Source: Escherichia phage SD2. Taken from it: DNA of 64,000 bases. Location: sequence record PQ821640; one strand, 5' to 3'. Below the pieces are notes generated by a model. It was given only the letters and a program-made list of their open reading frames with translations. It was not told where the DNA came from and did not search any database. The first letter of the stretch is position 1, and every line of letters starts with the position of its first letter. Of the stretch, positions 15,042 to 17,126 are shown piece by piece. Made by a program: the position numbers and the translations under genes.

Positions 15042-17126
15042 GTGGCAAGGAAACCTGTCAAACAATCTTTTGAAAACGTAGATATTGAAGTTAAAGCCCA
15101 ACCTGGCAAACAAACACTAGCTATGGATCTTATGCCTGAAGTAATGATTTATGGTGGTGCGGCAGGTTGTGTTTCAGCAGAAACAGAATACTTAACAAGA
15201 GACGGTTGGAAACAAATAAGTGAATATGATGGTGAGGATATTTACCAATACAATCCAAGAAATAAACGTCTTGAATTAGTTACACCATCTTTTGTAGAAT
15301 ATGATGCTAAAGATAATCTGTATTGTATCACAAACGGAGTAGGTGTCTTCCAAGAATTAAGTATGGAACATCGCTTTGTTTTCTACAAGAAGAAAAAATC
15401 CAAAAAACATTTTGAAATTCTTGTTGGGGATCTTATTGCACTACAGCAAGCAGGACACCCATTACGAGGATATATTGAAAATCCTTTTGGTAAACGTGTT
15501 CCGTTTAACATTCAAGGTAAACCTAGCACATATCTAAAAATTCATGAGGTAATGACAAGTGATGATAAGAAATATTGCTTTGAAACTCCAAGCAGTTATG
15601 TCGTGTTTAGACGTGGCGATCACATCTTCGTTACTGGGAATAGCGGCAAAAGCCGTCTGCTACTTCTAAAGGCACTTAAATACGCATATAAAGATCCACT
15701 GTTTGGTGGTATTCTTTTCCGTAAAAATACAACAGCTTTACGTAAATCTGGTGGTTTGTTTACTGAAGCTAAAAAACTTTATCTACCATTAAAGCCTCAC
15801 GTAAGAGAACAGGCTATGGAGATGGAGTTCAGAGCCACAAAAGGTGGTACACTTAAATTTGACCATCTTGAAAATGATAACGTAACTGCTGAAACTAACC
15901 ATCAAGGTACACAGTATTCGATGGTAGGTTTTGACGAACTTACACATTTTACACAATATGAAATGCTGTATCTGTTAGGGCGTATGCGTTCTGAATCAGA
16001 AACATCTTTTATGCTGTGTACTTGTAACCCTGATGCTGACAGTTGGGTGTTGAAATGGGTACTTCCTTATTTGGATGAAGCTGGTTATCCACGGGAAGAT
16101 ATGTGTGGCAAACAGCTATACTTTCTTATTGTGCAAGATGAACCAGTATTTGCTGAAACAGCAGAAGAGTTGAAAGAAAAGTATCCTGAAAACTGTTTTA
16201 TGCAAAACCCAAACACAGGTGAAACAGTGGTTATTGAACCACAAACATTTGTGTTCATTGGTGGTACTATCTTTGATAACCCTGAACTAATAAGACTTAA
16301 CCCTAAATACTTAGCTTCTTTGAAGGCTCAAACCGCCGTTAAGAGAGCACAGCTTTTAGATGGTTGTTGGTTTGCTCGTGCGCAAGAAGAGAGTTTCTTT
16401 AACAGAGAATGGTTACACGTTATCAAGTTTAAAGATTTACCAAACAATCTTAAATATATGCGAGCGTGGGATAAAGCAGTATCTGTTCCAACAGAATCTT
16501 ATCGTTATCCTGACTACACAACATCTGTTAAGATGGCTAAAGACTCTGATGGAAATTATTACATTTTTGGTGATTATGATTATGATGCTCACGATGAAGG
16601 TAGTAAAATTTTTGGTAGATTCAGAAGACTACCAGGTGATCGAGATAATTTAATTCTAAACCAATGTAAGATTGATGGAGATGAAGTTACAGTTGTATTG
16701 CCAAAAGATCCTTCTGGTGCTGGTTTGATTGAATATACAGAATCAGCTAAAAAACTAATTGCTGAAGGGTTTATTGTTAAACCAGATGCTATGCCTGGTA
16801 ACAAGAAAAAATTACAACGCTTTATGCCATTTAGTAGTGCTTGTCAAAATGGTTTTGTTTATATTGTAGAAGAATCTTTCCCTAACAAAGAAACTCTTGA
16901 TCATTTCTATAAAGAGATGGAGTCGTTTAATGGAGAAAGATCTACTGCAACATTAAAAGATGATATTCCAGATGCTGCTGCATCTTGCTTTAATACTTTG
17001 TCAAAAGAACAGATGTTTAAAGCAGTAGCAATACCTTCTGCAACAAATGCATTAACAGGATATGGTAAGATGGGTGGAAGATCAAGAAACTCTTTATCTT
17101 CTCCATATAGTATCAGAGGAAGATAA
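15042..17126 (+). CDS. terminase large subunit, interrupted by an intein
   Basis: Walker A reconstituted as GGAAG / SGKS across the insertion; Walker B VGFDELTHF; GTG start behind GGAGGAG. Confidence 0.75.
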   Translation: MARKPVKQSFENVDIEVKAQPGKQTLAMDLMPEVMIYGGAAGCVSAETEYLTRDGWKQISEYDGEDIYQYNPRNKRLELVTPSFVEYDAKDNLYCITNGVGVFQELSMEHRFVFYKKKKSKKHFEILVGDLIALQQAGHPLRGYIENPFGKRVPFNIQGKPSTYLKIHEVMTSDDKKYCFETPSSYVVFRRGDHIFVTGNSGKSRLLLLKALKYAYKDPLFGGILFRKNTTALRKSGGLFTEAKKLYLPLKPHVREQAMEMEFRATKGGTLKFDHLENDNVTAETNHQGTQYSMVGFDELTHFTQYEMLYLLGRMRSESETSFMLCTCNPDADSWVLKWVLPYLDEAGYPREDMCGKQLYFLIVQDEPVFAETAEELKEKYPENCFMQNPNTGETVVIEPQTFVFIGGTIFDNPELIRLNPKYLASLKAQTAVKRAQLLDGCWFARAQEESFFNREWLHVIKFKDLPNNLKYMRAWDKAVSVPTESYRYPDYTTSVKMAKDSDGNYYIFGDYDYDAHDEGSKIFGRFRRLPGDRDNLILNQCKIDGDEVTVVLPKDPSGAGLIEYTESAKKLIAEGFIVKPDAMPGNKKKLQRFMPFSSACQNGFVYIVEESFPNKETLDHFYKEMESFNGERSTATLKDDIPDAAASCFNTLSKEQMFKAVAIPSATNALTGYGKMGGRSRNSLSSPYSIRGR
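15168..15641 (+). mobile_element. mini-intein (158 aa) inserted in the terminase P-loop
   Basis: Begins with Cys (CVSAETEYLTRDGW, block A-like), internal SMEH (block B-like TxxH), ends HIFVTGN followed by Ser; flanking exteins restore the Walker A motif. Confidence 0.6.

What the first reader, a model, noticed from the sequence alone, without database searches (positions are those of the whole stretch)
15168..15641. Mini-intein splitting the Walker A P-loop of the large terminase
The terminase reads MIYGGAAG then a 158-residue insertion beginning with Cys and ending in Asn, then SGKSRLLLL. Removing the insertion restores a contiguous P-loop (GGAAGSGKS). Block A and B-like motifs are present, the penultimate residue is Gly rather than His, and there is no endonuclease domain. 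Packaging would depend on protein splicing.
Basis: seen in the sequence. Interest (0 to 1): 0.7.

Follow-up and report, generated by a model that had tools for sequence, protein, structure and literature searches.

The report
Mini-intein splitting the terminase P-loop
The DNA-packaging motor gene of this phi92-like E. coli phage carries a real, unannotated self-splicing protein insert (mini-intein) inside its ATP-binding loop; inteins at such sites are known, but this one has an unusual catalytic make-up and sits in an easy-to-handle coliphage.

Summary
The TerL ORF (15042-17126, +) carries a 158-codon in-frame insert (15168-15641), Cys...Thr-Gly-Asn, followed by Ser. It lies between Gly42 and Ser201 of GGAAG|SGKS.

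Of 120 TerL homologues, 71 read GGAAGSGKS without interruption and 37 carry inserts of 146-328 aa at exactly this site.

It belongs to a very large intein family (11,280 representative proteins). The family signature is Cys1, block-B His, block-F Cys (F:4), and Thr/Ser-Gly-Asn followed by Ser/Thr/Cys. So it pairs the class-1 nucleophile with class-3-type residues, and the penultimate Gly is a family trait.

It is present in all 148 matching phage records checked, is not labelled as an intein in any of the four records whose feature tables were read (nor in any feature name listed for the others), and is under purifying selection as strong as the terminase (dN/dS 0.06 vs 0.07).

Verdict: a genuine, almost certainly splicing-competent mini-intein and a new member of a known kind. 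Which cysteine starts splicing is unresolved. A second, related intein sits in the DNA polymerase gene (57269-58003, minus strand).

The parts
15032..15037 (+). Shine-Dalgarno AGGAGG of terL
   Evidence: Sequence. The same RBS is annotated in the phi92 record.
15042..17126 (+). terL precursor ORF, 694 aa (79.2 kDa), GTG start, stop included
   Evidence: Pfam Terminase_6N, Terminase_6C. Annotated as terminase large subunit in phi92, EmilieFrey and phAPEC8.
15042..15167 (+). N-extein, aa 1-42, ending ..MIYGGAAG
15156..15167 (+). N-terminal half of Walker A (G39-A-A-G42)
   Evidence: Intein-free homologues read GGAAGSGKS.
15168..15641 (+). Mini-intein, 158 aa (18.4 kDa), Cys1 to Asn158, HINT fold, no homing endonuclease
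15168..15209 (+). Block A: CVSAETEYLTRDGW (Cys1; G13 and W14 invariant in alignment A1)
15342..15383 (+). Block B: GVFQELSMEHRFVF, with Ser65 (B:7), His68 (B:10), Arg69 (B:11) and Phe70 (B:12)
   Evidence: Aligned residue for residue with S65, H68, R69 and M70 of AceL NrdHF. His is present in 179/179 family members.
15567..15614 (+). Block F: KKYCFETPSSYVVFRR, with Cys137 (F:4, codon 15576-15578) in place of the class-1 Asp
   Evidence: Aligns with the essential Cys124 of AceL NrdHF (PMC7891396). Cys is present in 176/179 family members.
15621..15644 (+). Block G: HIFVTGN|S, with Thr156 (G:5), Gly157 (G:6), Asn158 (G:7) and Ser+1 (G:8)
   Evidence: G:6 Gly 176/179, Asn 179/179.
15642..15653 (+). 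C-terminal half of Walker A (S201-G-K-S204)
15642..17123 (+). C-extein, aa 201-694 (rest of the ATPase domain plus the RNaseH-like nuclease domain)
   Evidence: Pfam Terminase_6N from aa 201 and Terminase_6C at 554-646.

Best explanation
Nucleotides 15168-15641 encode a HINT-fold mini-intein with no homing endonuclease, inserted between the third and fourth variable residues of the TerL Walker A motif (G-A-A-G|S-G-K-S).

TerL is translated as a 79-kDa precursor whose ATP-binding loop is interrupted. The intein then excises itself and joins Gly42 to Ser201. This gives a 60.8-kDa terminase with the normal GGAAGSGKS P-loop plus a free 18.4-kDa intein. Packaging therefore depends on splicing.

Proposed chemistry (inferred):
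1. The Gly42-Cys43 peptide bond is strained by Ser65 and His68 (block B) and converted to a thioester.
2. The acyl group is passed to the hydroxyl of Ser201 (+1).
3. Asn158 cyclises to release the intein. It has no penultimate His to help. As in its relative AceL NrdHF, Arg69 (B:11) probably takes that role.
4. An O-to-N shift makes the peptide bond.

Two cysteines sit at the N-terminal junction: Cys1 and the block-F Cys137, which is homologous to the obligate nucleophile of a class 3 intein. I favour initiation by Cys1, with Cys137 as an auxiliary or relay residue, but only about 55:45 over a pure class-3 start.

The element is no longer mobile. It is fixed and vertically inherited in the Stephanstirmvirinae and is kept splicing-competent by selection on the terminase.
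For: Shown:
- Exact coordinates and junction residues.
- 71 of 120 homologues have a contiguous P-loop and 37 have inserts of 146-328 aa at the same bond.
- Pfam terminase models align across the junction once the insert is removed.
- AF2 model: pLDDT 93.5, pTM 0.86.
- Foldseek: the 50 best matches listed (of 261 with E <= 10) are all HINT domains, with 6zgq best at E 1e-7.
- The family profile hits the 6zgq sequence at E 3.6e-11.
- Direct BLASTP to AceL NrdHF: 26% identity over residues 6-158, aligning S65, H68, R69, C137/C124 and T-G-N.
- AceL NrdHF is experimentally splicing-competent with Gly at G:6; Arg69 assists Asn cyclisation, and G145H kills activity (PMC7891396).
- A phage class-1 intein with a penultimate Gly splices efficiently (PMC5050341).
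- The family is huge and sits in classical intein hosts: primase-helicase, DnaB, RNR, RtcB, PolA and TerL. 96 of 179 copies are in P-loops, and 156 of 179 are 280 aa or longer; a LAGLIDADG-type module is detected in the larger inserts that were scanned (LAGLIDADG_3 above cutoff in P0123, below cutoff in P0023).
- Catalytic positions are almost invariant in the family: Cys1 178/179, His B:10 179/179, Cys F:4 176/179, Gly G:6 176/179, Asn 179/179.
- dN/dS against phAPEC8 is 0.061 for the intein and 0.072 for the extein, with dS of 1.46 and 1.66.
- The intein is 100% identical in cultured, plaque-forming phages (phi92; BASEL Bas61 and relatives), each with a single terL locus.

Inferred:
- That splicing occurs.
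- The order of the chemical steps.
Against: - No experiment here shows spliced TerL.
- The insert alone matches no Pfam, NCBIfam or PDB sequence.
- The canonical penultimate His and the block-F Asp are both missing.
- The fold evidence rests on a predicted model whose coordinates I could not inspect, so the distances between Cys1, Cys137 and the junction are unknown.
- For Cys1 as initiator: the homologous Cys in AceL NrdHF is the sole nucleophile, and that scaffold works with Ala1. One family member (P0253) has Pro1 but keeps the F:4 Cys.
Confidence: 0.9

Rival explanations
1. Same intein, but it splices by the class 3 route. Cys137 (F:4) attacks the Gly42-Cys43 bond directly, forming a block-F branched thioester that is then passed to Ser201. 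Cys1 is dispensable for catalysis and is kept for structural or redox reasons.
For: - The closest characterised relative, by both sequence and fold, is a proven class 3 intein in which the aligned Cys124 is essential and position 1 is Ala (PMC7891396).
- F:4 Cys is present in 176/179 family members, G:5 Thr/Ser in 165/179, and +1 is Ser. These are class-3 hallmarks (PMC2807308).
- P0253 has Pro1 with the F:4 Cys retained.
- From memory, not checked because the paper is not held: Tori & Perler 2011 reported that WCT inteins starting with Ser or Cys still use the F:4 Cys.
Against: - Cys1 is present in 178/179 family members, whereas class 3 inteins have a variable, non-nucleophilic residue 1.
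- B:12 is Phe, not Trp. Trp occurs in only 2/179 family members.
- The B:7 Ser/Thr-x-x-His arrangement is typical of class 1.
- Three family members have lost the F:4 Cys (two Ser, one Gly) while keeping Cys1.
Confidence: 0.4
2. The 158 residues are a permanent, non-splicing accessory domain of this terminase lineage. TerL would work with the domain looped out of the P-loop.
For: - The N and C termini of a HINT domain lie close together, so an insertion could in principle be tolerated.
- The insert is fixed and conserved in the whole subfamily.
Against: - Homologues at 63% identity lack the insert and have an uninterrupted P-loop.
- The same element occurs in unrelated proteins (RNR, RtcB, PolA, DnaB) at catalytic motifs.
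- Every splice-junction residue (Cys1, His68, Asn158, Ser+1) is conserved, which a passive domain would not require.
- A 158-aa insert between residues 4 and 5 of GxxxxGK[ST] is incompatible with phosphate binding (established P-loop structural knowledge).
Confidence: 0.03
3. A decayed, inactive intein. The gene would be a terminase pseudogene, with packaging provided by another gene, or the element would only cleave, as bacterial intein-like (BIL) domains do.
For: - No penultimate His and no F:4 Asp.
- No match to curated intein models.
Against: - dN/dS of 0.06, equal to the extein.
- Identical sequence in many independently isolated, viable phages that have a single terL locus.
- A +1 nucleophile is present, unlike in BIL domains.
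- The missing residues are also missing in AceL NrdHF, which is fully active (PMC7891396).
Confidence: 0.02
4. Add-on hypothesis: splicing is conditional. A reversible Cys1-Cys137 disulfide or metal binding would gate TerL maturation, and so packaging, according to the redox state of the infected cell.
For: - Two nearly invariant cysteines are predicted to lie at the N-terminal junction: Cys124 is 3.0 A from the scissile carbonyl in 6zgq (PMC7891396).
- Fixation and strong purifying selection without a homing endonuclease.
- The title and abstract of PMC6195587 (listed; the paper was not read) describe a mycobacterial DnaB intein as an oxidative stress sensor.
Against: - No direct evidence.
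- Purifying selection is equally explained by the need to keep an essential gene functional.
- The E. coli cytoplasm is reducing.
Confidence: 0.15

Closest known systems
AceL NrdHF class 3 split intein (PDB 6zgq; Hoffmann et al. 2021, PMC7891396)
   Same: - Collinear N-terminal half with identical numbering of Ser65, His68 and Arg69.
- Hydrophobic non-Trp residue at B:12.
- Cys at F:4, followed by Pro four residues later.
- C-terminus Thr-Gly-Asn|Ser.
- No penultimate His.
- Probably of phage origin.
   Different: - AceL starts with Ala1 (class 3 by definition), is naturally split, and sits in an RNR beta-subunit gene next to a GIY-YIG endonuclease gene.
- The window intein is contiguous, has Cys1, lies in a TerL P-loop, carries a 12-residue longer central region, and has a conserved Arg148 that AceL lacks.
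- Overall identity is only 26%.
Mycobacteriophage TerL inteins (Kelley et al. 2016, PMC5050341) and prophage Terminase_6 inteins (Novikova et al. 2016, PMC4760082)
   Same: - Inteins in the ATPase domain of phage large terminases, including the Walker A P-loop.
- Shown experimentally to splice.
- Phage class-1 inteins there often lack the penultimate His; the Gly-containing RDF intein splices faster than its Gly-to-His mutant.
   Different: - The mycobacteriophage P-loop sites (TerL1-a and TerL1-b) are in Terminase_1 proteins, at or next to the Lys|Thr bond. The mycobacteriophage Terminase_6 site (f) is in the C-motif.
- Here the host is a Terminase_6 TerL of an enterobacterial myovirus and the site is three residues upstream (G|SGKS).
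- Pfam-detectable HINT signatures are absent here.
Canonical class 3 (WCT) inteins: MP-Be DnaB, Msm DnaBi1, Mch DnaB1 (PMC2807308, PMC7664689)
   Same: - Cys at F:4, Thr at G:5, Ser/Thr at +1.
- Preference for ATPase P-loops.
- Proposed phage origin.
   Different: - They lack a residue-1 nucleophile, have Trp at B:12 and keep the penultimate His.
- The window intein has Cys1, Phe at B:12 and Gly at G:6.
Class 1 inteins that carry Cys at F:4 (mentioned as a polyphyletic set in PMC3196547, citing Tori & Perler 2011)
   Same: Cys1 together with Cys F:4.
   Different: I could not read the primary paper, so I cannot say whether this T-G-N family was among them, nor how they splice.

Membership tests
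Intein (protein-splicing HINT domain) | In-frame insertion in a conserved host protein, absent from homologues, whose removal restores the host sequence | tested here: met
   71 of 120 TerL homologues have a contiguous GGAAGSGKS and 37 carry inserts at the same bond. Pfam spans the junction after removal.
Intein (protein-splicing HINT domain) | HINT fold | tested here: met
   [not shown]
Intein (protein-splicing HINT domain) | Junction residues: Cys/Ser/Thr at position 1, block-B His, C-terminal Asn, Cys/Ser/Thr at +1 | tested here: met
   Cys1, Ser65-x-x-His68, Asn158 and Ser+1. All are near-invariant in the family.
Intein (protein-splicing HINT domain) | Penultimate His (G:6) and Asp at F:4. 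These are typical but not obligatory. | tested here: not met
   Gly157 and Cys137. The same substitutions occur in the active AceL NrdHF intein (PMC7891396). A Gly at G:6 is functional in the Bethlehem RDF intein (PMC5050341).
Intein (protein-splicing HINT domain) | Match to curated intein models (Pfam HINT families, TIGR01443 / TIGR01445) | tested here: not met
   No hit at E <= 1. Homology is seen only with a family profile.
Intein (protein-splicing HINT domain) | Demonstrated excision and extein ligation | not testable with these tools
   Inferred from the viability of cultured phages that carry the identical allele as their only terL.
Class 3 intein | No Cys/Ser/Thr nucleophile at residue 1 | tested here: not met
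   Cys1; 178/179 in the family.
Class 3 intein | Trp at B:12 | tested here: not met
   Phe70. The family has V/M/I/F/L here and Trp in 2/179. AceL NrdHF has Met and is still class 3 (PMC7891396).
Class 3 intein | Cys at F:4 | tested here: met
   Cys137 aligns with Cys124 of AceL NrdHF; 176/179 in the family.
Class 3 intein | Thr at G:5 and Ser/Thr at +1 | tested here: met
   Thr156 and Ser201.
Class 3 intein | Block-F branched thioester intermediate; F:4 Cys obligate | not testable with these tools
   Needs C1A and C137A mutants and trapping of the intermediate.
Mini-intein (no homing endonuclease) | Splicing domain only, about 130-200 aa, no LAGLIDADG / HNH / GIY-YIG module | tested here: met
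   158 aa with no endonuclease hit. Relatives of 301-328 aa carry a LAGLIDADG-like insert after block B.
Terminase_6-type large terminase (host protein) | N-terminal P-loop ATPase plus C-terminal RNaseH-like nuclease | tested here: met
   PF03237 at E 8e-19; PF17289 at 20.2 bits, just below its 22.6 cutoff. The portal gene lies immediately downstream.

The most novel reading that the evidence does not exclude
The T-G-N intein family, which includes this TerL intein and the second intein in the window's DNA polymerase, is a mechanistic hybrid between class 1 and class 3 inteins. Both Cys1 and the block-F Cys would be catalytic, for example in a Cys1 -> Cys F:4 -> Ser+1 acyl relay. Alternatively, the family preserves the ancestral two-cysteine state from which class-3 inteins such as AceL NrdHF arose by losing Cys1. 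Beyer et al. 2020 (PMC7664689) argued that such a path is implausible. Phage phi92 and the BASEL phages Bas61-63 would then be a natural, genetically tractable E. coli system for watching it work on an essential gene.
Probability: 0.25. Interest if true: 0.7.

Novelty: new member of a known kind. Interest (0 to 1): 0.48.

Why it matters
1. Annotation. The terminase of a widely used group of coliphages (phi92, phAPEC8, BASEL Bas61-63 and many therapy candidates; 148 records) is a spliced protein. The four feature tables I read (phi92, Bas61 EmilieFrey, phAPEC8, FKP3) do not mention an intein, and no feature name listed for the other records does either. Pfam and NCBIfam do not detect it. A 2024 paper states that no inteins have been reported in coliphages (PMC11162368).

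2. A tractable system. It offers an E. coli-based natural system in which an intein interrupts an essential ATPase P-loop. This allows in vivo tests of whether P-loop inteins are mere parasites or regulators, which is an open question raised by Novikova et al. 2016.

3. Mechanism. The catalytic set (Cys1 plus F:4 Cys plus Thr-Gly-Asn) bears on how class 3 splicing evolved.

4. Tools. A compact 158-aa intein that works in E. coli with a Gly(-1)/Ser(+1) junction and no penultimate His could be useful for protein engineering.

None of this overturns current understanding, because inteins in terminase P-loops are well documented.

Tried and rejected
- Single-sequence searches of the insert against Pfam, NCBIfam and PDB found nothing relevant. 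The best hits were WW-domain noise.
- The 327-aa relative also gave only a sub-threshold LAGLIDADG_3 hit.
- A word-indexed search with the AceL NrdHF sequence found only itself, so I could not map the Cys1/Ala1 states among its near relatives.
[quoted passage not shown] My recollection of it is flagged as memory.
- Literature searches for an intein in phAPEC8, phi92 or Phapecoctavirus found no report. This is absence from this library only.
- I considered that the helix VGDLIALQQ (intein residues 86-94) is a remnant LAGLIDADG helix, because MAFFT aligns it with LRLQVAVMADG of the large relatives. I rejected this as unreliable. That segment corresponds to the ordinary post-block-B helix of HINT domains, and the alignment there is gap-ridden.
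- I considered a BIL domain or Hedgehog-type autoprocessing domain. I rejected both because of the +1 Ser, the terminal Asn and the position inside an essential motif.
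Full report
**1. What is there**

The window is a phi92-like Justusliebigvirus (Stephanstirmvirinae). Positions 14000-18000 are 99.6% identical to Serratia phage KKP_3264 and about 99% identical to ECGD1, PHB05 and others.

Upstream lie the overlapping spanin genes (annotated as i-spanin and o-spanin in BASEL Bas61; window ORFs 14367-14798 and 14704-15033). The portal gene follows at 17224-18792.

Between them, the ORF 15042-17126 (+) encodes a 694-aa large terminase. It has a GTG start and an AGGAGG at 15032-15037.

Residues 43-200 (nt 15168-15641) begin with Cys, end with Thr-Gly-Asn, and are followed by Ser-Gly-Lys-Ser.

**2. The insert is foreign to the terminase**

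- In the precursor, Pfam Terminase_6N starts only at residue 201, at profile position 8.
- Among the 120 best TerL homologues, 71 read GG(A/S)AGSGK(S/T) without interruption. P0019-P0021 do so at 63% identity.
- 37 homologues carry an insert at exactly the G|S bond. The inserts are 146, 158-159, 246 or 301-328 aa long, and all begin with Cys and end (T/S)GN|SGKS.
- In silico excision gives a 536-aa protein. Terminase_6N then aligns from profile position 1 (E 8e-19), and Terminase_3 rises above its cutoff.

**3. The insert is an intein**

Alone, it matches nothing in Pfam, NCBIfam or the PDB by sequence.

- An AF2 model built on 32 family members is confident: pLDDT 93.5, pTM 0.86.
- Foldseek against the PDB returns HINT domains for all 50 best matches listed.
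- A profile of the family hits the 6zgq sequence at E 3.6e-11.
- Direct BLASTP aligns residues 6-158 with 6-146 of AceL NrdHF (26% identity, E 2e-5).

**4. A large, poorly annotated family**

The profile finds 11,280 representative proteins (E <= 1e-3; 2,692 at <= 1e-10) among 1.84 billion.

The 148 best proteins contain 179 full-length copies. They sit in primase-helicases, DnaB, ribonucleotide reductase, RtcB, family-A DNA polymerase and terminases. 96 of the 179 are at P-loops of the form [SCT]GK[ST]. 156 of the 179 are 280 aa or longer; the larger inserts that were scanned carry a LAGLIDADG-type module (LAGLIDADG_3 above its cutoff in P0123, below it in P0023). Only 11 are minis.

The signature is strikingly constant:

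| Position | Residue | Count (of 179) |
|---|---|---|
| 1 | Cys | 178 |
| B:7 | Ser/Thr | 172 |
| B:10 | His | 179 |
| B:12 | aliphatic, Met or Phe | Trp in only 2 |
| F:4 | Cys | 176 |
| G:5 | Thr/Ser | 165 |
| G:6 | Gly | 176 |
| G:7 | Asn | 179 |
| +1 | Ser / Cys / Thr | 101 / 41 / 37 |

Pfam's HINT models miss these inteins in their other hosts too.

**5. Relation to known mechanisms**

AceL NrdHF has been characterised in detail (PMC7891396).

- It has Ala1.
- Cys124 (F:4) is the essential first nucleophile, which makes it class 3.
- Thr144 (G:5) hydrogen-bonds His68.
- Gly145 cannot be replaced by His, because His clashes with Arg69.
- Arg69 contacts the C-scissile carbonyl and partly replaces the missing penultimate His.

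The window intein has the same Ser65, His68, Arg69, Cys (137), Thr-Gly-Asn and Ser+1. It differs in having Cys at position 1.

By the published definitions it is therefore not a class 3 intein: it has a nucleophile at residue 1 and no Trp at B:12 (PMC2807308, PMC7891396). Yet it carries the class-3 block-F cysteine.

Evidence on which thiol initiates splicing is mixed:
- Near-invariance of Cys1, and three family members that lost the F:4 Cys but kept Cys1, favour class 1.
- The AceL precedent, and P0253 (Pro1 with F:4 Cys kept), show that the scaffold can run without Cys1.

I favour initiation by Cys1, with Cys137 as auxiliary or relay residue, at roughly 55:45. This is unresolved.

A penultimate Gly is independently known to support fast splicing in a phage class-1 intein (PMC5050341).

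**6. Evolutionary state**

- The intein is present in all 148 phage records that match it. In Justusliebigvirus it is 100% identical, and in Phapecoctavirus and the Klebsiella relatives about 87% identical.
- None of the four feature tables I read (phi92, Bas61 EmilieFrey, phAPEC8, FKP3) mentions an intein, and no feature name listed for the other records does either.
- Across 16 metagenomic relatives, intein and extein identities track each other: 69-92% against 68-91%. The exception is P0016, at 55% against 70%.
- Against phAPEC8, dN/dS is 0.061 for the intein and 0.072 for the extein, with similar dS (1.46 and 1.66).

So the element is vertically inherited, has no endonuclease, and is under purifying selection as strong as that on the terminase. 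This is what one expects if splicing is obligatory for an essential protein.

Each complete genome has a single terL locus, and these phages are cultured isolates. Splicing is therefore strongly implied, but it is not demonstrated.

**7. What is known and what is new**

Already documented:
- Inteins in terminase ATPase domains and in P-loops (PMC5050341, PMC4760082).
- 22 inteins in prophage Terminase_6 proteins.

Apparently new:
- This instance in coliphages. No report was found, and a 2024 paper states there are none in coliphages.
- Its invisibility to the standard models.
- The recognition that it belongs to a Cys1 / F:4-Cys / T-G-N family related to AceL NrdHF.

I classify it as a new member of a known kind, with a moderate chance that the family is a mechanistic variant worth study.

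**8. Seen on the way**

- The family profile finds a second intein in the window. It is 245 aa, at 58003-57269 on the minus strand, inside motif A of the family-A DNA polymerase (..DFDSLEAKIESHY|C...ITGN|CWRYEQ..).
  - It has Cys1, Thr65, His68, Arg69 and Trp70, F:4 Cys, T-G-N and Cys+1. That is a full W-C-T triplet together with Cys1.
  - Pfam DNA_pol_A spans the junction after excision.
  - Phage Paula has an empty site with 100% identical flanks. This intein is therefore polymorphic within the genus, unlike the fixed TerL intein.
- Some relatives additionally carry group I introns with HNH endonuclease genes inside terL (PD114, cardinal, FKP3).

**9. Limits**

- There is no biochemical evidence.
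- The structure is predicted, and its coordinates could not be inspected.
- Only the 150 best family members were examined.
- One key paper was unavailable.

Noticed in passing
window 57269-58003, minus strand (within ORF 56417-59731): Second intein of the same family, 245 aa, inserted after ..DFDSLEAKIESHY (motif A region) of the family-A DNA polymerase. It has Cys1, T65-x-x-H68-R69-W70, block-F VWCP, and C-terminus ITGN followed by Cys. That is a complete class-3 W-C-T triplet together with a Cys1 nucleophile and a penultimate Gly. One LAGLIDADG-like motif remains (FLEGFLIADGYW). Pfam DNA_pol_A spans the junction after removal. Escherichia phage Paula has an intein-free allele with 100% identical flanks, whereas Salmonella phage UAB_1 has the insert. 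So it is polymorphic within the genus.
   Followed up: partly
L001 (Escherichia phage vB_vPM_PD114) 2763-3690; L005 (Klebsiella phage FKP3) 2725-4024; the corresponding terL region in the window is uninterrupted: In some close relatives the same terL gene is also broken by about 1 kb insertions that match the Rfam group I intron model (RF00028: 87 bits in FKP3; 46 bits, just under the gathering score, in PD114). These insertions encode HNH_3 homing endonucleases of 226-230 aa. GenBank annotates the terL pieces as separate CDSs. terL in this subfamily is thus a hot spot for both protein-level and RNA-level self-splicing elements.
   Followed up: partly
P0122 (metagenomic TerL, 855 aa); the equivalent window site is FDELTHF|TQYEM at about nt 15930-15962: A related terminase carries two inteins of this family. 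One is at the same P-loop site. The second is right after the Walker B-like FDELTH(Y) motif (..FDELTHY|C...SGN|TEYQF..). That site is empty in the window.
   Followed up: no
window 15387-15407: The intein contains a Lys-rich loop, KKKKSKK (intein residues 74-80), encoded by the A-rich run AAGAAGAAAAAATCCAAAAAA. The loop is invariant in relatives down to about 70% identity and is KKRKSKK in P0016. Its function is unknown, and a possible slippery tract was not examined.
   Followed up: no
phage collection records MG065656 and MG065650 ('Campylobacter phage C3 / B15'), OK210077 ('Serratia phage KKP_3264'), OR584014 ('Pseudomonas phage PsgM04F'): Records labelled with non-Escherichia hosts have terL or intein protein sequence about 87-100% identical to phi92 / phAPEC8-type coliphages (KKP_3264 is 99.6% identical at DNA level over window 14000-18000). 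Either the host range is very broad or the host labels are doubtful.
   Followed up: no
phage records MN103543 (Pseudomonas phage PS119XW), NC_027355 and NC_027352 (Bacillus phages BCP8-2, JBP901), KM190144 / ON075799 (Escherichia phages Av-05, TH18): The N-terminal 70 residues of the TerL intein give tblastn matches (33-38% identity) inside RtcB ligase genes of Pseudomonas and Bacillus phages and inside the terminase of Av-05-like coliphages. This suggests further unannotated inteins of this family in cultured phages.
   Followed up: no
OM033135 (Aeromonas phage phiA019) 68955-69966: A TerL homologue with 57% identity matches the spliced query in two pieces spanning about 87 codons more than expected, under two CDS annotations. 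This may be a different or degraded insertion at or near the same site.
   Followed up: no
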